In this document: positions 22,666 through 41,985 of the stretch, in pieces | Layout of the letters: every line of letters starts with the position of its first letter | Numbering within the stretch: the first letter of the stretch is position 1 | Source: a virus | Lineage: Duplodnaviria; Heunggongvirae; Uroviricota; Caudoviricetes | Virus record (IMG/VR): IMGVR_UViG_2541047698_000015 | DNA length: 42,876 nt | Reading direction: 5' to 3' (one strand) | Translations under genes and position numbers: made by a program | Notes under the pieces: generated by a model | What the model was told of the DNA's origin: nothing | Databases searched by the model: none | The model's input: only the letters and a program-made list of their open reading frames with translations

Positions 22666-24627
22666 TCATGCCGCGATGTCCGCGTTGTTCACTTCCACCT
22701 TCACACTGTCAATCAGCAGCGTATATGTCGCCGCCTTTGATATGCCTGTCAGTTGCAGTTTGTCCGCCGCCCCTGATGCCGGAGATTTCACCAGTGTGAA
22801 CGGCGTCCCCCGTTTCTCATCCAGTACCGGCGTCACCTGAATGCTGTTGTTTCCGGCAAACTCAAAAGCCAGTGTGTGCCATCCGTTATCAAAGACCCCG
22901 AACGTTTCCAGCTTCGCATTCGGCTTCTTGTGGTGCATCGCGTTCAGGTTCGTCGCATCCGTCTGCAGAAAGAAGGACATCAGCATGTCGTTGCCTTCCT
23001 CTGCCAGCGTCACTCCCTCCGGCAGGGACGACAACTGCCAGTAAATGCCCAGGGCAAACTGATTCGGCACCAGTGAACCCGGCAACTTAAACCGTACGCT
23101 CACACGTCCCCCCTTCTTCAGTAACTCCACTCCCTGTCCGGCTGCATCATGCTCCAGAAACCAGATGTGGTTTTCCGGTTTATTCAGTTGCAGGGCCTTA
23201 CCTCCCGTAGCCCCCGCATCACTGACCACCGCTTCAGCAATGTTTTTGTTAACATTGTCTCCGCTCGCCGGTTTGTGATAATAGCGCCAGCCCTGTGATG
23301 CCAGGTCTTCGCCGGACGCCAGCAGACTCATCAGGGTTCGGTTACTGACCGGGGCTTCCGGCTCTCTCTCCGTACCTTCACCGGAAGGTCCGGTGGGCTT
23401 CACCGTATCAGGCTGTTTTCCGGTAATGAATTCAGCGTTTCTCCCGGCATGCACAAGAATCGCCGTTGCCAGACGGTCGGAAATAATCCCACGACGTGCC
23501 CATGATCCAAAATGCGTTTTACGGTCGGCCGTCGTCCAGGTTTTGGCGTCCGTTCGACCACCGGCTCCGTAATACCCAATATCCGCAACATCCGGATCTT
23601 CTGACGGCTCGTTGGTACCCACATTTCGCCCGTTTTCATCCGTCATAAACGGCACAAAGAAGATTTTTTTTGCGGATTTCGTCTTGTATGCACCATACAC
23701 CGCATCGTATTGCGAAGAATAAGTCTGCTTCCAGTAGTAGGTCGTGTCGCCACAAATCCAGGGAACCGATGACGGAGAGCCCCCGAGACACTGACCTCCG
23801 AATTCCGACAGGTCAGAACGATATTTTTCCACCATGGAATCAAACAGCCCCGGCTGAGTGGCGTATGCACCCTGTTTCAAATCAAACTCGCCCTGCATCC
23901 AGACCACTGCAAGCAGAATATTTTTAGGGTTGGCCTTCAGTGCGGCCTGAGTACGGGTAAGCAGGTCCTTGTACAGTGGCTTATCAACACCCCAGCGTGC
24001 CGAGGTCTCGCTTGCGCCGGTGGATTCGCTGAAGGTACCTTCATCGCCCGCCAAAAATGCAGAACCACCACGGCAGCACGGAACCAGAAGAATACCGGCA
24101 TTCGCCGGAATAAACGGCAACAATTTCTTCGCGATATGTAATCCCTGCCCCACGCATCCATACTGAGCTGCGCTGGCTTTCGGGTGTGAAAACTTACTCA
24201 AATCCTGAACATCATGCAGGCAGTGGTCCGCAGGAATAATGTCATTGTAGTTACAGGACGCACCACCCGGCGTGACAGTGCTGCGACGCGCCAGCTGTTT
24301 AATACGCGGGTCCGGACGGTCATATGTCTCCGGCAGCGGAAGCCCTTCACCATACGCCATACCGTTTGACTGCCCGGCCAGGGCAACAACAAAGTAATAC
24401 TCCGGGTTGCTGGTGGTGCTGATAACTGCGCCTTCTCCATCCGACGGCTTCACCACCACAGGTGTGGTGACATCACCTTCCGCCGCAATGGCCTGCATCA
24501 GGGTATAAGGCGTGATGGCCACCGGACTGCCAAATGGCTGCCACCCCTCCTTCAGTTTTTGTGTCAGTCGTTTCGCAAGGTCTGACGGCGATGCCGCCCT
24601 GACAACATCATAGTGTTTAAATGCCAT
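22666..24627 (-). CDS. nanS-p: prophage sialate O-acetylesterase (nanS-p / YjhS-like SGNH hydrolase)
   Basis: ~653 aa from MAFKHYDVVRAAS...; GQSN motif (FVVALAGQSNGMAYGEG); position between the Q-tRNA-cargo slot and holin, as for nanS-p in Stx2 phages. Confidence 0.8.
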   Translation of the reverse strand: MAFKHYDVVRAASPSDLAKRLTQKLKEGWQPFGSPVAITPYTLMQAIAAEGDVTTPVVVKPSDGEGAVISTTSNPEYYFVVALAGQSNGMAYGEGLPLPETYDRPDPRIKQLARRSTVTPGGASCNYNDIIPADHCLHDVQDLSKFSHPKASAAQYGCVGQGLHIAKKLLPFIPANAGILLVPCCRGGSAFLAGDEGTFSESTGASETSARWGVDKPLYKDLLTRTQAALKANPKNILLAVVWMQGEFDLKQGAYATQPGLFDSMVEKYRSDLSEFGGQCLGGSPSSVPWICGDTTYYWKQTYSSQYDAVYGAYKTKSAKKIFFVPFMTDENGRNVGTNEPSEDPDVADIGYYGAGGRTDAKTWTTADRKTHFGSWARRGIISDRLATAILVHAGRNAEFITGKQPDTVKPTGPSGEGTEREPEAPVSNRTLMSLLASGEDLASQGWRYYHKPASGDNVNKNIAEAVVSDAGATGGKALQLNKPENHIWFLEHDAAGQGVELLKKGGRVSVRFKLPGSLVPNQFALGIYWQLSSLPEGVTLAEEGNDMLMSFFLQTDATNLNAMHHKKPNAKLETFGVFDNGWHTLAFEFAGNNSIQVTPVLDEKRGTPFTLVKSPASGAADKLQLTGISKAATYTLLIDSVKVEVNNADIAA

Positions 24628-24887
24628 GGTTCTTTCCACCATCTGAAAAATAATTCTTTAAAATACCTGACATGTAATACAGAAAAAACACAAAACCATA
24701 CCTTAAATAAAAACCTCATCATCAAGCAGATATGCATGGATAAACTACAAGACGAGATATAAACCACCCTGCATTTAAATAAACAATAAACAACATCAGA
24801 AAAATAATTCTGCTCTATGGTTTACATTCAAAAATATCATTTATACTTTTCAGAACATCACCAGCAAGACATAAACAAGGAAACTAA

Positions 24888-25223: not shown

Positions 25224-25670
25224 GGAGTTTACTCACATCTGACAAAATCAATATAAACAGCCCCTCCGGAGAGGGGCTGGAGAGTGGCGCTATGTGCCAT
25301 TGCATGGTGCCGGGTGCCTCCCGGTGAATTCAGTACCAGCACCTGAATCCGCGATTATCCCATATACCTACTCGCTGATTGCCCCTCCGCACAGGGGGAT
25401 TCACCATGCCAGTTTCTTTTAACAAACTCCCCGCAAACCAGACAACAGTCAACCGCCTGAATTGTGAAGTATTTAAAAATTTCTCCCGCTAACTGATACC
25501 CGGCTAACAGTCTGGCGTTTTCTTTTTCAGCAACGGGAAAGCAACAACCACCACACCCGCCACCAGCACACCGTCAGCCAGCACTGACATTATCCGGCTG
25601 CTGCAATGCCACTCACAAAAACAGTAAGCAATCACTTTTTACCGTAACAAGTGATAATCCAGATATGTAT

Positions 25671-26024: not shown

Positions 26025-26137
26025 TACTTAACAGAACTTTTATTTTTGACAAACATATAATATTTTCAACAATATCCTGAGCCAGGTATATTTCAGTATA
26101 AGGCTCTGCCGGAAGGAATCTGGAAGAATGAATATAG

Positions 26138-26211
26138 CGCGCTGTACTGGATTCGAACCAGTGACCGATTGCTTAGAAGGCAATTGCTCTGTCCGGCTGA
26201 GCTAACAACGC
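26138..26211 (-). tRNA. tRNA-Arg (anticodon UCU), argN/argO-like; CCA end not encoded
   Basis: Cloverleaf readable by hand: acceptor GCGUUGU/ACAGCGC, D-arm AGCTCAGCCGGACAGAGC, anticodon loop CUUCUAA, T-arm ACTGG-TTCGAAT-CCAGT. Confidence 0.8.
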
Positions 26212-26311: not shown

Positions 26312-26387
26312 TGGTGGCCCTTGCTGGATTTGAACCAGCGACCTGGCGATTATGAGTCGCTCGCTCTCACCACTGAGCTAAAGGGCC
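26312..26387 (-). tRNA. tRNA with CAU anticodon (Ile2-lysidine type, ileZ-like; Met not excluded)
   Basis: GGCCCTTTAGCTCAGTGGTGAGAGCGAGCGACTCATAATCGCCAGGTCGCTGGTTCAAATCCAGCAAGGGCCACCA on minus; anticodon loop CUCAUAA; CCA encoded. Confidence 0.8.
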
Positions 26388-26530: not shown

Positions 26531-27352
26531 TTACCTAGTTACCTTTTTTAACTGCCGCTCAGCCCATGCTTCTTCAATATCAAACCGGGTCACCAGCGCA
26601 TCATAGAATTTCTTAACTGTTTTTTCCCATGACGCGCGTGTTATCTGGTTTGTCACCTCGCATATAGCATTAAATGCCTCCGTTGATGGTAGTCTTTCAT
26701 AGCCACGACCACCACAACGCTGGCAGTCTCTGATAACAGGCATACCACGTTTTACCGACTCTTCACGGTGAATGGCGACACCACGCCCACGGCAATCCTT
26801 ACAGGCGGTGGAAACCTCACCCTTTCCGCCACACTCCGGACAGGCAACTTTTACCACCTCCCTGACTTTTTTCCATTCTTCCCAGTAAGACGGATACACA
26901 CCTTTCGTACACTTTGCCCATACCGGCGGCTTACCATCCGGATACTGGACCTTGTTTGTAAAAACTATGCTTTCAATAAATTTTTCCCCATAGCAACAAG
27001 GGCACTGCTTTTTACTCGCTGCGCTGCGGGCATAATCCTCAAAAGCGTACGAAGCCATAATGCGCATCACTACCGGTTTTATTTCTGCCGGAAGTTTTCT
27101 CAACGCCGCCACACGATCGCACCGACTGAGTGCATAATCTGCCAGTAATTCTGTTGCCCGCACCCTGTCATTCATACTGATGCCCATTTTCCCCAGGAAC
27201 GCAGAAAAACCCATCTCAGCCCGATTCTGTGTCATGCCCTGCGCGGCCATCACATCAGTGATACTCAGCGCATCTTTTGACGTTGAGGCCGATGCATCGG
27301 TCAGGCCAGGGGATTTTGGGGAGTAGTATTTCGGTAAATCTTCCAGTTTCAT
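26531..27352 (-). CDS. late antiterminator Q-like protein with three CxxC-G-G/R-G zinc motifs
   Basis: 273 aa with CPECGGKG, CKDCRGRG, CQRCGGRG; immediately upstream of pR'/tR'; assignment is mainly positional. Confidence 0.6.
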   Translation of the reverse strand: MKLEDLPKYYSPKSPGLTDASASTSKDALSITDVMAAQGMTQNRAEMGFSAFLGKMGISMNDRVRATELLADYALSRCDRVAALRKLPAEIKPVVMRIMASYAFEDYARSAASKKQCPCCYGEKFIESIVFTNKVQYPDGKPPVWAKCTKGVYPSYWEEWKKVREVVKVACPECGGKGEVSTACKDCRGRGVAIHREESVKRGMPVIRDCQRCGGRGYERLPSTEAFNAICEVTNQITRASWEKTVKKFYDALVTRFDIEEAWAERQLKKVTR

Positions 27353-29596: not shown

Positions 29597-29752
29597 TTAC
29601 TCCTCAGGTTCGTAAGCTGTGAAGACAGCGACCTCCGTCTGGCCGGTTCGGATTCGTACCTCGCAGAGGTCTTTCCTCGTTACCAGTGCCGTCACTATGA
29701 CGGTTAAACAGATGACGATCAGGGCGATTAACATCGCCTTTTGCTGCTTCAT
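29597..29752 (-). CDS. hok: Hok-family type I toxin (51 aa)
   Basis: Hand translation of minus strand gives MKQQKAMLIALIVICLTVIVTALVTRKDLCEVRIRTGQTEVAVFTAYEPEE, a canonical Hok; not in the ORF track because it is under 60 aa. Confidence 0.9.
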   Translation of the reverse strand: MKQQKAMLIALIVICLTVIVTALVTRKDLCEVRIRTGQTEVAVFTAYEPEE

Positions 29753-29990
29753 AGCCTGCTTCTCCTTGACCTTTCGGTCCGTAAGAGGCTAATCTCTATG
29801 TGTCGCATAGATATGGCCTCAGATTAATGTTAAGCGTCTTGCAGGACGCGTAATGTTAACTGGGGCTTTTCTCTATCTGCCTTTTGGTGTTCATGCCTGA
29901 GACAGATAGCCTCAAGCACCCGCAGTTATTCTACTTAACTAAGATTTCCCCGCAAACCGTTTTTGTCCGGCACAGTAAATATCCAACTAA
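29753..29990 (-). promoter_or_regulatory. hok leader region with short upstream leader ORF whose TGA overlaps the hok ATG (mok-like coupling); an antisense Sok-like RNA is expected here but not delimited
   Basis: Leader ORF MRHIEISLLRTERSRRSRL ends in cTATGAag; inverted repeats in the leader. Confidence 0.45.
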
Positions 29991-35809: not shown

Positions 35810-36217
35810 ATGAACGAGAAAACTTTAGGTCAACGAATTAGAGAAAGACGCAAACAGGTTGGTTTAAGTCAAAACGATTTAAGCAAAGCCGCTGGCGTAT
35901 CTGGCTCATCAATTTCACTATGGGAAAGCGACCATACAGCCCCGCGCGGGCAAAATTTGCATCGCCTGGCTGAGGTATTGCAATGTTCACCAACTTGGAT
36001 ACTGTTTGGTGACGAGGATAAAACACCAGATCCACCAGTAGCACTCAACAGCGCCTTAGACTTATCGGAAGATGAGTTGGAGATGTTGCGATTGTATCGC
36101 GCACTTCCAAAATCAGAGCAGCAAGCACAAATCAGCGAACTCCGTGCCCGCGTTGAGAATTTTAATCGCCTATTCACCGAGCTACTAGAAGCTCGCAAAC
36201 GTAACAAACATCAGTAA
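35810..36217 (+). CDS. dicA: DicA-like HTH (XRE) repressor, 135 aa, no S24 peptidase domain
   Basis: MNEKTLGQRIRERRKQVGLSQNDLSKAAGVSGSSISLWE...LQCSPTWILFGDEDK; same length and conserved C-terminal motif as DicA of Qin. Confidence 0.85.
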   Translation: MNEKTLGQRIRERRKQVGLSQNDLSKAAGVSGSSISLWESDHTAPRGQNLHRLAEVLQCSPTWILFGDEDKTPDPPVALNSALDLSEDELEMLRLYRALPKSEQQAQISELRARVENFNRLFTELLEARKRNKHQ

Positions 36218-36410
36218 CCCCCTTCACAAATTTTAAAGCCTTACATTTCAATGTATTGGCTTTATTTTGCATTAAATATTGAGTTTTCTCATTAAAAATG
36301 CTTGACCAACATTCATGAGAAAACTAAATTACCACCCATCAAGACACCGCACGGTGTTCTCAGCAAACAGTTCCGCTACCCGGCGTTAAGGGGAAACAGA
36401 GGATTTCTCA

Positions 36411-36767
36411 GTGGGCGAAGTCAAACATCAGAATGGAAGGCATCCCGGGATCGGCAAAGAAGCAGCAATGGCGCTTTATATTGACATCAGCGCCATTGCC
36501 GGACAGGTAAGAATTATCAGAGCGGTAACTAAGCGGTATGCGCCTTTACTTCAGAAAGTCTCTGGTGAGTGCACCGAAGATATTGTCAACGATTTCGTCA
36601 TCGAACTGCGAGGACTCATCTTCAGTTACAAGGTGACCACAATTTTTGCAGATGGCTCCCGCGAAACTGTCAGAGCCCTGCGGCTTAAAGGATGTGTCAA
36701 AGACTTCGCCACCACATTCTGGGCAAGAAAACTTGATTGTACTCATAACCAATTTCCTCTCGAGTAA
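36411..36767 (+). CDS. possible hypothetical protein (GTG start, 118 aa) on the immunity-operon strand
   Basis: Track ORF with GAGGA SD; antisense to a zinc-ribbon ORF, so only one of the two is likely real. Confidence 0.3.
   Translation: MGEVKHQNGRHPGIGKEAAMALYIDISAIAGQVRIIRAVTKRYAPLLQKVSGECTEDIVNDFVIELRGLIFSYKVTTIFADGSRETVRALRLKGCVKDFATTFWARKLDCTHNQFPLE
36546..36746 (-). CDS. possible small zinc-ribbon protein (CPECGG...CKNCGH)
   Basis: Two CxxC pairs at zinc-ribbon spacing; AGGAAA SD before internal ATG; antisense to the 36411..36767 ORF. Confidence 0.35.
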   Translation of the reverse strand: MSTIKFSCPECGGEVFDTSFKPQGSDSFAGAICKNCGHLVTEDESSQFDDEIVDNIFGALTRDFLK

Positions 36768-36838
36768 CAGACCCCTCAGAGGATACCACCTCGCCTGACG
36801 TGGTTAAAAGCAGGCAACGCTAACCACAAGGAGCCGAC

Positions 36839-37057
36839 ATGCAGAAACGAGAACCTGTCATCATCGCGCCAGACTATACCGATGATGAACTTTATGAGTG
36901 GATGCGCCAGAAAATTAATGCAGCGCAGGATCTGAAATGGGCCAATGAAGCCAGGGCTAAGCAGGCTGAAAATCTGTCCGCTCTGGAGCAGGATATCACC
37001 AGGCTGGAAAAAGCAGCGGCATTAAGCATTGCCAGAATGATTACATACCAGCGTTAA
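36839..37057 (+). CDS. small coiled-coil protein (YdfC-like, 72 aa)
   Basis: MQKREPVIIAPDYTDDELYEWMRQKINAAQDL...; strong SD (AAGGAG); same size and position as ydfC in Qin. Confidence 0.55.
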   Translation: MQKREPVIIAPDYTDDELYEWMRQKINAAQDLKWANEARAKQAENLSALEQDITRLEKAAALSIARMITYQR

Positions 37058-37379
37058 TAGCTAACCAACGAAGCTAAGGTTGGTAATTAAGGAGTTCTCC
37101 ACGGGTGAGGTGGAGTGCGTGCGCCGGACACGGGTGAGCATCCGGCACTGACAGTTTACTGAAAGGATATTTCCATGAAAAGTCAGACCATAACGCGAAA
37201 GTACACGGAGAAGCTCGTCTCTCTGTACTTTGTCGTTAAATTTAATTCGACCGTGCGCTTCCGGTTGTGGCAATCCGCGAAATGGCGCGGCGGTAAGTAT
37301 GGCGGGGTTATTCCTTCCCCTTGAGGACACCGGGTTGTCAGGCTGACCATACGCTTAAGTGACAGCCCCGCCACAATAT

Positions 37380-37438
37380 CCATGTGTAGTCTTTGGTGGC
37401 ATCAGTTCTACTCCGTGACTGCTCTGCCGCCCTTTTTA
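37380..37438 (+). ncRNA. dicF: DicF-like small RNA (ftsZ-targeting sRNA family) with terminator-like 3' end
   Basis: TCTTTGGTGGCATCAGTTCTACTCCGTGACTGCTCTGCCGCCCTTTTT matches the 3' two-thirds of E. coli DicF as I recall it; 5' seed region differs. Confidence 0.6.
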
Positions 37439-37612
37439 AAGTGAATTTTGTGATGCGGTGAATGCGGCTCAGCGCACGCGGAACAGTTAAAACAAGCGGT
37501 CTTTTACGGGCGTAACGGGAATGCTCTGTATCCGGCGTTAATTGTTAACTGGTTAACGTCACCTGGAGGCACCAGGCACCGCATCACAAAATTCATTGTT
37601 GAGGACGCGATA

Positions 37613-37801
37613 ATGGAAACGTTATTACCAAACGTTAATACGTCTGAAGGTTGTTTTGATATTGGTGTTCTGCTCAGTAACCGGGAGTTTACGGAAGATG
37701 CCATTAAGATGAGAAAATATGAACCTTATCTTCTCAATGATAATTCCATACTTTCCAGAATTGCCCTTCTTGAACTTGGTATTATCGGAGAACAGCAGTG
37801 A
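37613..37801 (+). CDS. dicB: cell-division inhibitor DicB
   Basis: 62 aa, METLLPNVNTSEGCFDIGVLLSNREFTEDAIKMRKYE..., N-terminus as in Qin DicB. Confidence 0.85.
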   Translation: METLLPNVNTSEGCFDIGVLLSNREFTEDAIKMRKYEPYLLNDNSILSRIALLELGIIGEQQ

Positions 37802-37986
37802 CTTCAGCATTTGCGCTGGTGATGACCGTTTTTCTTATAACGGGTGAGCCACAAAATGTGATTACCGGAATTTATGACAGTAAGTCATCCTGCATTCAGG
37901 TAAGGGACGAACAAAAAATCCCCGGTGAATGCCTCCCGTTAAAAAAAGTATCGCTGAACCTGAATAACGAAATACCGGCTGGATAA
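37798..37986 (+). CDS. ydfD: YdfD-like small membrane (lysis-type) protein
   Basis: 62 aa, MTSAFALVMTVFLITGEPQN...EQKIPGECLPLKKVSLNLNNEIPAG, resembles Qin YdfD; ATGA overlap with dicB. Confidence 0.7.
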   Translation: MTSAFALVMTVFLITGEPQNVITGIYDSKSSCIQVRDEQKIPGECLPLKKVSLNLNNEIPAG

Positions 37987-38081
37987 CCCGCCAGCCATAT
38001 TAACGCCATACCAACGGATTAAAAATGCCAGCAATGGCAGGGATTCGTTCACCCTGAAATCTGTAATGAGGTTAAAACACA

Positions 38082-40556
38082 ATGAGTAAAATCTTTATTT
38101 GCGCTGCTATTCCTGACGAACAGGCCATAAAAGAAGATAGCGCTGTTGCGGTGGCCACTGCCATTGAAGCCGGTGATGAACGTCGCGCCCGCGCAAAATT
38201 TCACTGGCAATTCCTGGAACATTATCCGGCTGCTCAGGACTGCGCTTATAAATTTCTTGTTTGCGAGGATAAACCCGGTATACCCCGCCCTGCCCTCGAT
38301 TCCTGGGATGCTGAATATATGCAGGAAAACCGCTGGGATGAGGAATCCGCTTCCTTTATTCCGGTCGAACCAGAATCCGATCCGATGAACGTCAATTTTG
38401 ACAAGCTGTCCCTTGAAGTACAGAACGCGGTCCTGGTTAAGTTCGGTACATGTGAAAACATCACCGTTGATATGGCGATTGACGCGCAGGAATTACTGCA
38501 GGAAGACGTTGCTACCTTTGACGGGCATATCGTTGAAGCACTGATGAAAACGCCTGAAATTAACGCTATGTATCCGGAACGCAAACTGTTCGCTATCGGA
38601 TGGGTTAAACACAAATGTAATCCGGGTGCCAAATGGCCAGAAATTCAGGCTGAATTACGTAACTGGAAAAAACGGCAGGACGCAGAGCGCAAAGAGACTG
38701 GAAAATACACGTCTGTTGTTGATCTCGCCCGCGCCAGAGTCAATCAACAGCACACTGAAAACTCAGCAGGAAAAATCAACCCAGTCACTGCCGCCATTTG
38801 TCGCGAATACAAGCAGACATGGAAAACGCTGGATGAAGAACTGGCCTACGCTCTCTGGCCTGGCGATATTGATACCGGAAACATTGACGGCAGCATCCAT
38901 CGCTGGGCAAAAAATGAAGTTATCGACAAAGATCGCGAAGACTGGAAGCGCATTTCCGCATCAATGCGCAAACAACCCGATGCCGTTCGCTACGACCGTC
39001 AGACTATTTTTGGCCTTGTCCGTGAGCGTCCGATCGACATTCACAAAGATCCCGTAGCACTGAACAAATACATCACTGAATACCTGACTACCAAGGGCGT
39101 GTTTGAAGATGACGAAGGAACAAATCAGGGCACAGCTGGTACTCTCCCGTCACCAGTACCAGAAACTGATGCAGTGGAAACGGCAATGCCGGACAACGAA
39201 AAAACCGAATGCGAAGTGGAAGACGAACCATCTGTAGAGCGTGAGGGACCGTTCTACTTCCTTTTCACCGATAAGGACGGCGAAAAATACGGTCGCGCAA
39301 ACAAACTTTCTGGTCTGGAAAAAGCACTGGCCCTGGGAGCTACGGAAATCACAAAAGAGGAATACTTCGCACGTAAAAACGGCACGTACTCAGGTTCACA
39401 ACAAAATACTGGTGCATCTGACACGATCGCACAACCAGAGCCGGTAAAAGTTACCGCTGACGAAGTAAACAAAATTATGCAGGCAGCCAATATCAGCCAG
39501 CCTGACGCCAATAAGTTGCTTGCTGTATCACGTGGTGAATTTGTTGCAGGGATTAGCGCCCCGAATGATCCGAAATGGGTGAAGGGGATTGAAACCCGCG
39601 ATTCAGTGAATCAGAACCAGCAAGAAACGGAACAGAACGGCCAGAAAGCGGAACAAAACAGCCCAAATGCGTTACAAAACGAGCCAGAAACGAAACATCC
39701 TGAACCAGTGGCGCAACAGGAAGTGGAAAAAGTCTGCACCGCCTGCGGTCAGACCGGCGGCGGCAACTACCCTGATTGTGGCGCGGTGATGGGCGACGCA
39801 ACATACCAGGAAACATTCGATGAAGAGTATCAGGTTGAAGTTCAGGAAGATGATCCGGAGGAAATGGAAGGCGCTGAACATCCACACAAGGAGAACACTG
39901 GCGGCAATCAGCATCACGATAGCGATAATGAAACTGGCGAGACGGCAGATCACTCAATTAAGGTGAACGGTCATCAAGAAATCACATCCACCAGCAGGAC
40001 GTGTGACCATCTAATGATCGACCTTGAAACCATGGGAAAAAATCCTGATGCCCCGATCATCTCAATAGGTGCAATATTTTTCGATCCGCAAACCGGAGAT
40101 ATGGGACCGGAATTTAGTAAGACTATCGATCTGGAAACTGCTGGCGGAGTCATTGATCGGGACACCATTAAATGGTGGCTTAAGCAATCACGCGAAGCGC
40201 AATCTGCCATTATGACCGATGAAATCCCGTTAGATGATGCACTGTTACAATTGCGGGAATTTATCGACGAAAACTCCGGTGAATTTTTTGTTCAGGTCTG
40301 GGGAAATGGAGCCAACTTCGACAACACGATTTTGCGCCGTTCATACGAACGGCAGGGGATCCCCTGCCCGTGGCGTTACTACAACGATCGCGATGTACGC
40401 ACAATCGTTGAGCTGGGGAAGGCCATAGACTTCGATGCCAGAACGGCTATTCCATTCGAAGGTGAGCGCCATAATGCACTTGATGACGCCCGTTACCAGG
40501 CAAAATACGTTTCAGCTATCTGGCAAAAACTGATCCCGAGTCAGGCTGATTTTTAA
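38082..40556 (+). CDS. 824-aa RecE-N-like / YdfE-like protein with C-terminal DEDDh (DnaQ-like) 3'-5' exonuclease domain
   Basis: N-terminus MSKIFICAAIPDEQAIKEDSAVAVA... as in Qin ydfE; central LLAVSRGEFVAGISAPNDPKWVKGIETRD resembles the Rac RecE N-region; C-terminus has Exo I (MIDLETMG), Exo II (VWGNGANFD) and Exo III (HNALDDARY) motifs. Confidence 0.8.
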   Translation: MSKIFICAAIPDEQAIKEDSAVAVATAIEAGDERRARAKFHWQFLEHYPAAQDCAYKFLVCEDKPGIPRPALDSWDAEYMQENRWDEESASFIPVEPESDPMNVNFDKLSLEVQNAVLVKFGTCENITVDMAIDAQELLQEDVATFDGHIVEALMKTPEINAMYPERKLFAIGWVKHKCNPGAKWPEIQAELRNWKKRQDAERKETGKYTSVVDLARARVNQQHTENSAGKINPVTAAICREYKQTWKTLDEELAYALWPGDIDTGNIDGSIHRWAKNEVIDKDREDWKRISASMRKQPDAVRYDRQTIFGLVRERPIDIHKDPVALNKYITEYLTTKGVFEDDEGTNQGTAGTLPSPVPETDAVETAMPDNEKTECEVEDEPSVEREGPFYFLFTDKDGEKYGRANKLSGLEKALALGATEITKEEYFARKNGTYSGSQQNTGASDTIAQPEPVKVTADEVNKIMQAANISQPDANKLLAVSRGEFVAGISAPNDPKWVKGIETRDSVNQNQQETEQNGQKAEQNSPNALQNEPETKHPEPVAQQEVEKVCTACGQTGGGNYPDCGAVMGDATYQETFDEEYQVEVQEDDPEEMEGAEHPHKENTGGNQHHDSDNETGETADHSIKVNGHQEITSTSRTCDHLMIDLETMGKNPDAPIISIGAIFFDPQTGDMGPEFSKTIDLETAGGVIDRDTIKWWLKQSREAQSAIMTDEIPLDDALLQLREFIDENSGEFFVQVWGNGANFDNTILRRSYERQGIPCPWRYYNDRDVRTIVELGKAIDFDARTAIPFEGERHNALDDARYQAKYVSAIWQKLIPSQADF

Positions 40557-41895: not shown

Positions 41896-41985
41896 TGGCG
41901 GAGAGAGGGGGATTTGAACCCCCGGTGGAGTTGCCCCCACTCCGGTTTTCGAGACCGGTCCGTTCAGCCGCTCCGGCATCTCTCC
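41896..41985 (-). tRNA. serU: tRNA-Ser (anticodon CGA), serU-like; integration target
   Basis: Minus strand reads GGAGAGATGCCGGAGCGGCTGAACGGACCGGTCTCGAAAACCGGAGTGGGGGCAACTCCACCGGGGGTTCAAATCCCCCTCTCTCCGCCA (90 nt, long variable arm, CCA encoded). Confidence 0.9.

What the first reader, a model, noticed from the sequence alone, without database searches (positions are those of the whole stretch)
37378..37990. DicF-like sRNA, DicB and YdfD-like genes; long inverted repeat between dicF and dicB
The left operon carries a DicF-like sRNA whose 5' region differs from K-12 DicF (possibly altered targets), an intact dicB and a ydfD-like gene. A 19-bp perfect inverted repeat (~37441..37460 and ~37577..37595) brackets ~116 nt between dicF and dicB and contains a GTTAAC-N2-GTTAAC motif; this is a likely RNase III processing stem or regulatory structure.
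Basis: partly seen in the sequence, partly recalled or inferred. Interest (0 to 1): 0.45.

Follow-up and report, generated by a model that had tools for sequence, protein, structure and literature searches.

The report
DicF–dicB spacer hides STnc100-like RNA
This is the well-known prophage cell-division-inhibitor operon (DicF RNA, DicB, YdfD-like), and its long inverted repeat closes a conserved folded RNA of the STnc100 family, at the place where published E. coli K-12 work maps an RNase III cut.

Summary
Rfam DicF matches 37381-37432 (58.3 bits, cut-off 48). dicB (37613-37801) and a DUF1482/YdfD-like gene (37798-37986) are intact. A perfect 19-bp inverted repeat (37442-37460 / 37577-37595, 21 bp with one G·U) brackets 116 nt.

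The locus is a dicBF operon of a lambdoid prophage, found in most E. coli genomes. The DicF allele is a chimera of a foreign 5' seed (UGUGUAGUC) and the K-12 hairpin. It is predicted to lose xylR pairing and keep ftsZ and manX pairing.

The repeat is conserved in K-12 with G·U-compatible changes. Published K-12 data report an RNase III-made 72-nt DicF.

The repeat is also helix P1 of a roughly 136-nt multi-helix RNA with a probable pseudoknot. This RNA is related to the prophage sRNAs STnc100 and PasD, and I found no annotation or paper describing it here. It scores below Rfam's cut-off (37.7 vs 47 bits, E 2e-6). It shares a 21-nt core motif with STnc100, and helices P1, P2 and P4 covary across Enterobacterales. 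The GTTAAC repeats are the P4 hairpin and pseudoknot strand.

Stand-alone copies have a short P1 and their own terminator. Operon-embedded copies have a long P1 and usually precede an ORF (DicB and KilR among them) or a DicF-like sRNA. What the core does is unknown.

The parts
36839..37057 (+). ydfC-like gene, the last ORF before the DicF region
   Evidence: ORF. The homologous ORF is annotated 'protein YdfC' in the closest E. coli records. No Pfam or NCBIfam hit.
37250..37294 (+). Hairpin homologous to the K-12 RNase III site that makes the 5' end of the 190-nt DicF precursor (equivalent cut near 37257/37258)
   Evidence: The K-12 site comes from PMC10448788. It was mapped onto the window through alignment A1. 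The same hairpin is predicted in the window and in K-12. The fold is not better than shuffles (z about -1), so the assignment rests on homology.
37381..37437 (+). DicF sRNA allele: foreign 5' seed (AUGUGUAGUC), K-12-type terminator hairpin with the anti-Shine-Dalgarno loop UACUCC, and a U-tract
   Evidence: Rfam RF00039 at 58.3 bits. Alignment with K-12 and with DicF-like sRNAs from other loci. Target duplex energies.
37440..37460 (+). P1 5' arm (the inverted repeat). Predicted RNase III cut at about 37451-37456, giving the long (72-nt-type) DicF 3' end
   Evidence: for the helix. K-12 conservation with C:G>U·G and G:C>G·U changes. Published 72-nt species mapped.
37464..37479 (+). P2 hairpin: GCGGC / GC-A-CGC with a bulged A and loop UCAGC
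   Evidence: 99.6% of cells paired, 4 of 6 pairs with changes on both sides across 109 sequences.
37480..37533 (+). P3 variable arm, closed by GGA/UCC. It contains the pseudoknot 5' strand CAGUUAA at 37484-37490
   Evidence: Minimum-energy fold. The closing pairs covary by inspection of type-B sequences. Pseudoknot pair counts.
37535..37559 (+). P4 hairpin (GCGUUAA / UUAACGU). Its loop holds the pseudoknot 3' strand UUAACUG at 37545-37551.
   Evidence: All 7 P4 pairs covary. Pseudoknot: 57.4% paired vs 37.5% in shuffles, 0/500 shuffles as high, with the peak at register 0.
37562..37576 (+). P5 hairpin CCUGG-AGGCA-CCAGG, part of the family signature CACCnGGAGGCACCnGGCACC
   Evidence: The motif occurs twice in the window against 0 expected. 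The free n/n' pair is complementary in 109 of 109 sequences.
37577..37597 (+). P1 3' arm. The inferred partner RNase III cut near 37583-37588 would leave a dicB mRNA with a leader of about 25-30 nt
   Evidence: The position of the cut is inferred from the 2-nt stagger rule of RNase III and was not measured.
37613..37801 (+). dicB (62 aa), Shine-Dalgarno GAGGA at 37601-37605. A divergent allele, 61% identical to K-12 DicB
   Evidence: Pfam DicB 129.5 bits. NCBIfam 111 bits against a cut-off of 100. BLASTP against K-12. K-12 DNA homology ends inside the gene near 37724.
37798..37986 (+). ydfD-like (DUF1482) gene, 62 aa, GTG start overlapping the dicB stop
   Evidence: Pfam DUF1482 56.4 bits. 48% identity to the K-12 lysis protein YdfD.

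Best explanation
The region is the distal part of a dicBF-type operon of a lambdoid prophage. It is transcribed rightward from a promoter next to a DicA-like repressor gene. The gene order is ydfC-like, DicF, a structured spacer, dicB, ydfD-like, then an exonuclease gene.

DicF is cut out of the polycistronic RNA. Its 3' end forms either at its own intrinsic terminator or, on read-through transcripts, by RNase III. The 19-21-bp inverted repeat is the RNase III substrate.

The repeat is also the closing helix (P1) of a five-helix RNA domain of about 136 nt with a probable pseudoknot. This domain belongs to the same superfamily as the prophage sRNAs STnc100 and PasD.

Cleavage in P1 is inferred to have three effects:
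(i) it creates the long DicF form;
(ii) it releases the STnc100-like core as a separate RNA with a 9-10-bp P1 stub;
(iii) it leaves a dicB-ydfD mRNA with a short 5'-monophosphate leader. That would uncouple the toxic downstream genes from the upstream RNA and probably limit their expression.

Shown here: the sequence features, the family relationship, covariation of the helices, and conservation in K-12. Taken from the K-12 literature: an RNase III-dependent 72-nt DicF. Inferred: the exact cut positions in this allele, release and stability of the core, and the effect on dicB.

The DicF allele should still repress ftsZ and manX but not xylR, because only its 5' seed has been replaced.
For: - DicF, DicB and DUF1482 pass their curated thresholds.
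- The operon context matches K-12 Qin: dicC/dicA, ydfA, ydfB, ydfC, dicB, ydfD as annotated there, with dicF annotated in MG1655. It also matches phage Tritos.
- The repeat is perfect and the fold is very stable. It is conserved in K-12 with two pairing-preserving changes.
- In extended P1 helices of type-B copies, G·U outnumbers A·C 24 to 6. This points to selection on the + strand RNA.
- A published RNase III-made 72-nt DicF (PMC5069750; PMC9438474) ends at position 10-15 of the 5' arm by my mapping.
- Gordon et al. 2017, Table S1, list 'dicF-dicB' position 1649470 with 26 reads in the rnc mutant against 0 and 0 in wild type.
- Family relationship: the Rfam STnc100 model aligns over its whole length to 37430-37645 (37.7 bits, E 2.2e-6).
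- The 21-nt motif is shared with the window's own full STnc100 copy.
- Covariation over 109 sequences from many genera: 88.6% paired vs 75.6% in shuffles, 0/500, and 40-48% when the partner columns are slid by 1-3.
- My covariance model finds only these two copies in the window (83.1 and 91.7 bits; next best 11.9). It also finds the K-12 spacer (77.9 bits) and phage P7 (86.9 bits).
- P1 length tracks context. Stand-alone copies: median P1 8 bp, terminator 24-45 nt downstream in most of the 71/132 that have one, promoter-like sites in 26/138. Embedded copies: P1 7-22 bp (median 10; 21 bp in every dicB-linked copy), an ORF within 45 nt in 19/35, promoter-like sites in 0/36.
Against: - No RNA data exist for this allele.
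- I could not read the primary 1990 paper. The secondary sources disagree on which end RNase III makes. PMC10448788 speaks only of the 5' end of a 190-nt species.
- The Gordon 2017 signal is 26 reads, unstranded, in a table full of similar low-count entries. Its peak lies in P2, not P1.
- If the excised core were abundant and stable, wild-type reads might be expected there, and there were none. The operon is repressed in that condition, though, and I do not know whether their libraries retained small RNAs.
- The element fails Rfam's STnc100 gathering score and lacks that family's terminator.
- The homologues were collected with a fixed 21-nt pattern, so P5 and the inner 4 bp of P1 are fixed by ascertainment.
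- A simple RNase III site would not need the strongly conserved core, so part of the function is unexplained.
Confidence: 0.65

Rival explanations
1. The structure is a purely cis-acting leader. It would act as a stable 5' insulator or protective fold that sets the translation or stability of dicB without being cleaved in P1. The 72-nt DicF would then arise elsewhere, or not in this allele.
For: The P1 3' arm ends only a few nt before the dicB Shine-Dalgarno sequence. Embedded copies usually sit directly in front of an ORF (19/35 within 45 nt). Several embedded copies have a P1 of only 7-10 bp, too short for RNase III.
Against: The published 72-nt species maps into the 5' arm by my calculation. 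All dicB-linked copies have a 21-bp P1. The Shine-Dalgarno sequence is not sequestered in the predicted fold.
Confidence: 0.15
2. The conserved pseudoknotted core is a sensor (riboswitch-like, or a protein- or tRNA-binding aptamer) that controls expression of the downstream gene in response to a ligand.
For: The junction and loop nucleotides are invariant across genera (GGUGAAU, CUnnGCG, AGGCA), there is a pseudoknot, and the element lies just 5' of ribosome-binding sites. The architecture loosely resembles a tRNA (my reading: 7-9-bp P1 stacked on a 5-bp P5).
Against: Most family members (type A) are followed by a terminator. The window's own copy is then followed by a convergent ORF rather than a regulated gene. 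A 21-bp perfect P1 is too stable to switch. No alternative pairing with the Shine-Dalgarno sequence was found. PasD members behave as Hfq-dependent trans-acting sRNAs (PMC8550237).
Confidence: 0.1
3. The inverted repeat acts at the DNA level, as the terminal repeats of a small mobile element or as a protein-binding palindrome.
For: The overall shape is terminal inverted repeats around about 116 bp. The element occurs in many different genomic contexts and sometimes in arrays.
Against: Internal helices covary. G·U-type changes exceed A·C-type changes 24 to 6, which is specific to the + strand. The reverse strand scores 5.5 bits against 83.1. Arm sequences differ completely between copies while pairing is kept (L132, L175, L193). 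No target-site duplications were seen.
Confidence: 0.03

Closest known systems
[quoted passage not shown]
   Same: Same gene order and orientation next to a DicA/DicC-type immunity region. The DicF hairpin and terminator, the spacer with the inverted repeat, the dicB start region and the upstream RNase III hairpin are 87-100% identical.
   Different: The DicF 5' seed is replaced and 14 nt upstream are deleted. ydfA and ydfB are absent; a minus-strand ECs_2282-family gene and an unassigned ORF lie there instead. The C-terminal half of DicB and the YdfD-like protein come from another lineage (61% and 48% identity). No complete E. coli genome in the collection matches 36200-38100 over most of its length at better than about 95.5%.
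STnc100 (Rfam RF02076) and PasD prophage sRNAs
   Same: Same helix order (P1, P2, variable arm, P4, P5). Same signature GGUGAAU...CACCnGGAGGCACCnGGCACC. P2 covaries between the subtypes (CCC-CC/GG-A-GGG against GCG-GC/GC-A-CGC). The same pseudoknot topology is present.
   Different: It scores 37.7 bits, below the gathering score of 47. It has no promoter or terminator of its own and no 3' seed tail. P1 is 21 bp instead of 6-9 bp. It lies inside an operon in front of an ORF rather than as a stand-alone gene in the late region. STnc100 and PasD are described as Hfq-associated trans-acting sRNAs; nothing is known for this copy.
RNase III processing helices that excise a structured RNA, or sit in phage early leaders (rRNA precursor stems; lambda N-leader; T7 early intercistronic sites). 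From established knowledge, not tested here.
   Same: A helix of about 20 bp or more, formed by sequences flanking a folded RNA within a polycistronic transcript. Cleavage would separate the upstream RNA, the enclosed RNA and the downstream cistron.
   Different: The enclosed RNA is a roughly 136-nt member of an sRNA family rather than rRNA. Cleavage positions and consequences have not been measured for this locus.
DicF-like sRNAs of other lambdoid prophages, some upstream of a kilR-like gene (loci L114, L142, L124, L106)
   Same: The 5' seed GUGUGUAGUC(U/C) is shared, as is the position next to a type-B element in the early-left operon.
   Different: Those RNAs have other terminator hairpins without the UACUCC anti-Shine-Dalgarno loop, and they fall below the Rfam DicF cut-off. 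The window's DicF combines their seed with the K-12 hairpin.

Membership tests
DicF sRNA (Rfam RF00039) | Covariance-model score at or above the curated gathering score | tested here: met
   58.3 bits against 48, full-length match at 37381-37432.
DicF sRNA (Rfam RF00039) | Terminator-type hairpin with a U-tract, lying between ydfC and dicB in a prophage operon | tested here: met
   The hairpin is kept through C>U and U>C changes that preserve pairing. UUUUU at 37433-37437. Flanked by ydfC-like and dicB genes.
DicF sRNA (Rfam RF00039) | Complementarity to the ftsZ ribosome-binding site through the loop and 3' half | tested here: met
   Duplex energy -20.0 kcal/mol against -19.4 for K-12 DicF on the MG1655 ftsZ leader. 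The loop has one U>C change.
DicF sRNA (Rfam RF00039) | 5'-end seed that pairs with xylR (K-12 DicF nt 4-18) | tested here: not met
   K-12 gives 13 contiguous pairs at -20.3 kcal/mol. The window allele's best 5' duplex is -12.3, at a different site. Nine of the first 11 nt differ.
DicF sRNA (Rfam RF00039) | Inhibits cell division when expressed | not testable with these tools
   Needs an induction and filamentation assay.
DicB (Pfam PF05358 / NCBIfam NF049927) | Full-length match above the curated cut-offs, with an uninterrupted 62-codon frame and a Shine-Dalgarno sequence | tested here: met
   129.5 bits (cut-off 27) and 111 bits (cut-off 100), residues 1-62 of 62. GAGGA lies 7 nt before the ATG.
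DicB (Pfam PF05358 / NCBIfam NF049927) | MinC-dependent inhibition of FtsZ ring formation | not testable with these tools
   The allele is only 61% identical to K-12 DicB, and the differences are concentrated in the C-terminal half.
YdfD / DUF1482 (Pfam PF07358) | Profile match above the cut-off, with the gene overlapping the dicB stop codon | tested here: met
   56.4 bits (cut-off 25), 48% identity to K-12 YdfD, 4-nt GTGA overlap. Lysis activity was not tested.
STnc100 (Rfam RF02076) | Covariance-model score at or above the gathering score | tested here: not met
   37.7 bits against 47, although E is 2.2e-6 and all 206 model positions are aligned. The window's other copy at 25249-25438 scores 132.4 bits.
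STnc100 (Rfam RF02076) | Core fold: P1, the P2 hairpin with loop CUnnGCG, the P4 hairpin, P5 CCnGG-AGGCA-CCn'GG, and the GGUGAAU junction | tested here: met
   All are present at 37440-37597. Helices covary in the 109-sequence alignment. The joint model R1 scores 83.1 bits, but the window sequence was part of its seed.
STnc100 (Rfam RF02076) | Stand-alone sRNA gene with its own 3' tail and intrinsic terminator | tested here: not met
   There is no terminator after P1; the dicB ribosome-binding site follows directly. No promoter-like site lies upstream of any type-B copy (0 of 36).
RNase III processing site | Continuous double-stranded RNA of about two helical turns | tested here: met
   21 bp (19 Watson-Crick pairs, then G·U and A-U), stacked under the 5-bp P5 helix.
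RNase III processing site | rnc-dependent RNA ends inside the helix | tested here: inconclusive
   Secondary literature only, and only for K-12. The 72-nt DicF maps into the 5' arm by my calculation. A weak rnc-dependent read difference is reported at 1649470. There is nothing for this allele, and the primary paper is not held.

The most novel reading that the evidence does not exclude
The dicBF operon, including the much-studied copy in E. coli K-12, may encode a third, unrecognised RNA product. This would be a roughly 136-nt pseudoknotted RNA of the STnc100/PasD superfamily, excised from read-through transcripts by RNase III cuts in its long closing helix. More generally, this scaffold may be a modular RNA unit of Enterobacterales phages. 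It is made either from its own promoter, with a seed and terminator tail, or by excision from operons. In operons it sits in front of cell-division inhibitor genes (dicB, kilR) or DicF-like sRNAs. It would then have a conserved function of its own, for example binding a host factor.
Probability: 0.35. Interest if true: 0.65.

Novelty: new variant of a known kind. Interest (0 to 1): 0.45.

Why it matters
DicF and DicB are textbook prophage inhibitors of cell division, and the operon's processing has been studied since 1990. The spacer between them nevertheless carries no annotation in MG1655, and no paper I could search describes it.

Recognising the spacer as a member of a very widespread, structurally constrained RNA family gives a concrete prediction that can be tested in K-12 itself. 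It links two sRNA families that have been treated separately (DicF and STnc100/PasD). It also suggests that RNase III excision is a second way of making such RNAs.

The chimeric DicF allele shows that sRNA target range can be changed by swapping a seed module between prophages. About 630 of the 20,395 records searched (roughly one E. coli genome in nine) carry this allele at 95% identity or more.

Tried and rejected
- **Third scaffold copy upstream of DicF.** The region 37262-37376 has GUUGUGGCAAUCCGCG...GCCACAA, which looked like a degenerate copy. My covariance model gives no hit there in the window or in K-12. That region is better explained by the hairpin holding the known upstream RNase III site.
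- **HK022 put-type antiterminator RNA.** Neither the motif nor any model hit occurs in the HK022 immunity region.
- **Internal promoter between DicF and dicB.** The scan found none. By eye there is only a weak GTGACT-16-TAAAGT. PMC10448788 also reports no internal promoter.
- **Pairing between the DicF 5' end and the dicB start codon.** The fold shows UCCAU/AUGGA, and K-12 could form UUUUC/GAAAA. Strain TUM13064 combines the K-12 seed with the window's dicB start, so the two do not co-vary.
- **Per-sequence pseudoknot test with shuffled strands.** This was weak: only 18 of 109 sequences reached p<=0.05 when G·U pairs are allowed. The column-based count was more informative.
- **Small ORF 37175-37324.** Its ATG is absent in K-12 and TUM13064 and it has no family hit.
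- **Literature.** A full-text search for the core motif found no paper. Faubladier and Bouché 1994 (PMC205167) is not held. The supplements of the RNase III map by Altuvia et al. are not held.
Full report
**What is there**

- Rfam DicF matches 37381-37432 on the + strand at 58.3 bits (gathering score 48) over the full model.
- A perfect 19-bp inverted repeat lies at 37442-37460 / 37577-37595, with 116 nt between the arms.
- dicB (37613-37801, 62 aa) matches Pfam DicB end to end at 129.5 bits and NCBIfam at 111 bits (cut-off 100).
- The next ORF (37798-37986, GTG start overlapping the dicB stop) is a DUF1482 protein, the family of the K-12 lysis protein YdfD (48% identity).

Upstream lie a P22-Cro-like gene on the minus strand, a DicA-like helix-turn-helix repressor gene, a promoter-like site at 36302-36330 and a ydfC-like gene. 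Downstream lies an 824-aa protein with a 3'-5' exonuclease domain.

[quoted passage not shown] Parts of the 1-kb stretch 37060-38080 match 4738 of 5426 complete E. coli genomes. No genome matches 36200-38100 over most of its length at better than about 95.5%, so this is a mosaic variant of a very common module.

**The DicF allele**

Against K-12, nine of the first eleven DicF positions differ and 14 nt just upstream are missing. The hairpin, its UACUCC loop and the U-tract are kept. Two stem changes preserve pairing, and the loop has one U>C change.

The new 5' end (AUGUGUAGUCU) is the seed found in DicF-like RNAs of other prophages: L114 and L142, each followed by a type-B element (defined below), and L124 and L106, each preceded by one. 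Those RNAs have different hairpins and fall below Rfam's DicF cut-off. The window's allele is therefore a chimera of that seed and the K-12 hairpin.

Published mutational work shows that the DicF 5' end pairs with xylR and sequences near the 3' end pair with ftsZ (PMC5069750). Duplex energies on MG1655 target sequences agree with a change in target range:

| Target (DicF region) | K-12 DicF | Window allele |
|---|---|---|
| xylR (5' seed) | -20.3 kcal/mol | -12.3 kcal/mol |
| ftsZ (middle / 3' half) | -19.4 | -20.0 |
| manX (middle / 3' half) | -24.4 | -23.5 |
| pykA (middle / 3' half) | -22.3 | -23.6 |

(All.) The allele is not rare: 627 records match 37330-37470 at 95% identity or more.

DicB is 61% identical to K-12 DicB. 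The DNA homology with K-12 breaks inside the gene near 37724.

**The inverted repeat is an RNA helix and, in K-12, an RNase III site**

The repeat is conserved in K-12. Its two differences convert C:G to U·G and G:C to G·U, so pairing is kept. In the extended helices of related elements, G·U pairs outnumber A·C mismatches 24 to 6. That pattern is expected for selection on the + strand RNA and not on DNA. The isolated 163-nt element folds at -68.9 kcal/mol (z = -6.5) with a 21-bp closing helix.

Two papers citing Faubladier et al. [quoted passage not shown] The terminated form is 53 nt. The extra 19 nt place that end at position 10-15 of the 19-nt 5' arm in K-12, equivalent to window 37451-37456.

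An RNA-seq comparison of wild type and an rnc mutant lists 'dicF-dicB' position 1649470 with 26 mutant reads against zero wild-type reads. This is weak support. The counts are low, the data are unstranded, and the position lies in P2.

A second, separate RNase III site makes the 5' end of the 190-nt precursor (PMC10448788). It maps to window 37258, inside a conserved hairpin at 37250-37294.

I could not read the 1990 paper itself (the related 1994 paper is not held either).

A permissive Rfam scan of 37000-38100 aligns the whole STnc100 model to 37430-37645 at 37.7 bits, E 2.2e-6, below the gathering score of 47. The same window holds a full STnc100 at 25249-25438 on the minus strand (132 bits). 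The two share the motif CACCnGGAGGCACCnGGCACC, which occurs twice in the window against zero expected.

Nearly all hits were in Enterobacterales of many genera: Escherichia, Shigella, Salmonella, Enterobacter, Klebsiella, Kosakonia, Pantoea, Erwinia and others. In 232 of 266 hits, GGTGAA lies upstream of the motif, nearly always 73-107 nt away.

Two subtypes emerge:
- **Type A** is the Rfam STnc100 form, GGUGAAUCCCCCUnnGCGGnGGGGC.
- **Type B** is the form in the dicF-dicB spacer, GGUGAAUGCGGCUnnGCGCnCGCGG.

**Structure and covariation**

On a 109-sequence alignment, a five-element structure is supported: closing helix P1, hairpin P2 with a bulged A, a variable arm P3, hairpin P4 and hairpin P5.

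- Overall, 88.6% of cells are paired against 75.6% in shuffles (0/500 as high) and 40-48% when the partner columns are slid by 1-3.
- P2 is 99.6% paired, and the type A and type B versions are compensatory (CCC-CC/GG-A-GGG against GCG-GC/GC-A-CGC).
- All seven P4 pairs covary.
- The free n/n' pair of P5 is complementary in all 109 sequences.
- P5 and the inner four pairs of P1 were fixed by the search pattern and carry no weight.

The strand following P2 (window CAGUUAA, 37484-37490) pairs with the P4 loop (UUAACUG, 37545-37551). Across the alignment this pseudoknot is 57.4% paired against 37.5% in shuffles (0/500), with the maximum at the proposed register. Examples of different sequence with the same topology are L132 (CAGCGA/UUGCUG) and L103 (AAGGUUG/CAACCUU).

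A covariance model built on this alignment finds exactly two copies in the window, at 83.1 and 91.7 bits, with the next hit at 11.9. It scores 5.5 bits on the reverse strand. It also finds the K-12 spacer (77.9 bits) and a copy in the ban operon of phage P7, between tRNA genes and a terB-like gene (86.9 bits). The window sequences were in the seed alignment, so their own scores are partly by construction.

**Context separates the two subtypes**

| Feature | Type A | Type B |
|---|---|---|
| P1 length | mostly 6-9 bp (median 8) | 7-22 bp (median 10) |
| Intrinsic terminator downstream | 71/132, most starting 24-45 nt away | 7/35 |
| ORF with Shine-Dalgarno within 45 nt | 14/132 | 19/35 |
| Promoter-like site just upstream of P1 | 26/138 (control position: 1) | 0/36 |

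 Type A therefore behaves as a stand-alone sRNA gene. This fits the published description of STnc100 and PasD as Hfq-associated prophage sRNAs.

What follows type B is dicB (always with a 21-bp P1), a KilR-like FtsZ inhibitor (NCBIfam PRK11354, 161 bits), an Ash-family protein, TerB in P7, or a DicF-like sRNA.

The longest closing helices belong to operon-embedded copies, and every dicB-linked copy has one. This is what one would expect if a long helix is needed to fold the domain, or cut it out, inside a long transcript.

**Mechanism I commit to, and its limits**

On transcripts that read through the DicF terminator, RNase III cuts P1. I infer three consequences:
- It makes the long DicF form.
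- It frees the STnc100-like core, about 37452-37587, with a 9-10-bp stub.
- It leaves a dicB-ydfD mRNA with a 5'-monophosphate leader of about 25-30 nt. This probably makes the mRNA for two toxic proteins short-lived and independent of upstream RNA.

| Claim | Status |
|---|---|
| The helix, its conservation, the family relationship | Shown here |
| RNase III-dependent 72-nt DicF | Reported for K-12 in secondary sources |
| The cut positions in this allele | Inferred |
| The fate and function of the core | Inferred |
| The direction of the effect on DicB | Inferred |

A plain RNase III site would not need the invariant junctions and the pseudoknot. The core therefore very likely has a function of its own that these tools cannot identify.

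Three rivals are given separately: an uncleaved insulator, a ligand sensor, and a DNA palindrome. The last is effectively excluded.

**Novelty**

DicF, DicB, YdfD and RNase III processing of this operon are known. As far as I could find, it is not described that the dicF-dicB spacer, in K-12 too, is a member of the STnc100/PasD superfamily with a long helix at the published RNase III cut.

- MG1655 carries no feature there.
- The 2026 preprint that links PasD with STnc100 never mentions DicF or dicB.
- No paper in the library prints the core motif.

I rate this a new variant of a known kind, of moderate interest. It is directly testable in K-12.

Noticed in passing
window 25249-25438 (-): A full Rfam STnc100 copy (132 bits). 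It lies in the late region, downstream of a Q-like gene (26531-27352), a terminator and two tRNA genes, and upstream of a 658-aa ORF (22666-24642). It is the paralogue that exposed the nature of the dicF-dicB spacer.
   Followed up: yes
window 26137-26211, 26312-26387 and 41896-41985 (all -): Three tRNA genes: tRNA-Arg(tct) and tRNA-Met(cat) after the Q-like gene, and tRNA-Ser(cga) near the end of the window. The last could mark a prophage attachment site.
   Followed up: no
window 29750-29921 (-): Match to the Rfam sok (hok/sok) family RF01794 at 106.7 bits, inside the prophage.
   Followed up: no
L036 1724-3286; L078 4378-5461 and 8378-8517; L024 371-990; L013 2324-3352: Tandem arrays of three to five STnc100-like units, about 250-260 nt apart in most cases, in some viral contigs. 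Three of the L036 units reach the Rfam cut-off.
   Followed up: partly
L114, L142, L124/L103, L106 (sequences shown): DicF-like sRNAs that share the 5' seed GUGUGUAGUC but have other terminator hairpins. They sit just before or just after a type-B element and are not captured by Rfam DicF. This looks like an unannotated sRNA group with exchangeable seed and hairpin modules.
   Followed up: partly
window 36785-36818 (+): Conserved hairpin plus tail, CCACCUCGCCUGACGUGGUUAAAAGCAGGCA, just upstream of the ydfC-like gene. Near-identical motifs lie just upstream of type-B elements in L103, L124 and L132. It could be a nut-like or processing signal.
   Followed up: no
window about 37724 (inside dicB): DNA homology with K-12 Qin stops in the middle of dicB. 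The C-terminal half of DicB and the YdfD-like gene belong to another lineage (61% and 48% protein identity), so a recombination joint lies inside a 62-codon gene.
   Followed up: partly
L142 3236-3424: In a Shigella flexneri prophage the type-B element is followed by isrK (RF01394) and C4 antisense RNA (RF01695). This early-left operon is a string of structured RNAs.
   Followed up: no
L124 and L103, just after the DicF-like terminator: A second long inverted repeat (CAAAACAGAGAAGAGCATCACCGG ... GGTGTTCTTCTCTGTTTTG) encloses about 50 nt between the DicF-like sRNA and the next ORF. L106 has an analogous one. These may be further RNase III-type helices.
   Followed up: no
L244 2998-3119 (phage P7; also D6): P1-like phages carry a high-scoring copy of the scaffold (86.9 bits) in the C1-controlled ban operon, between tRNA genes and a terB-like gene. 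The element is therefore not confined to lambdoid phages.
   Followed up: partly
window 37175-37324 (+): A 49-codon ORF in the ydfC-DicF spacer has an ATG only in this window. K-12 and TUM13064 read CCTG at that position. It has no family hit and is probably not a gene.
   Followed up: yes
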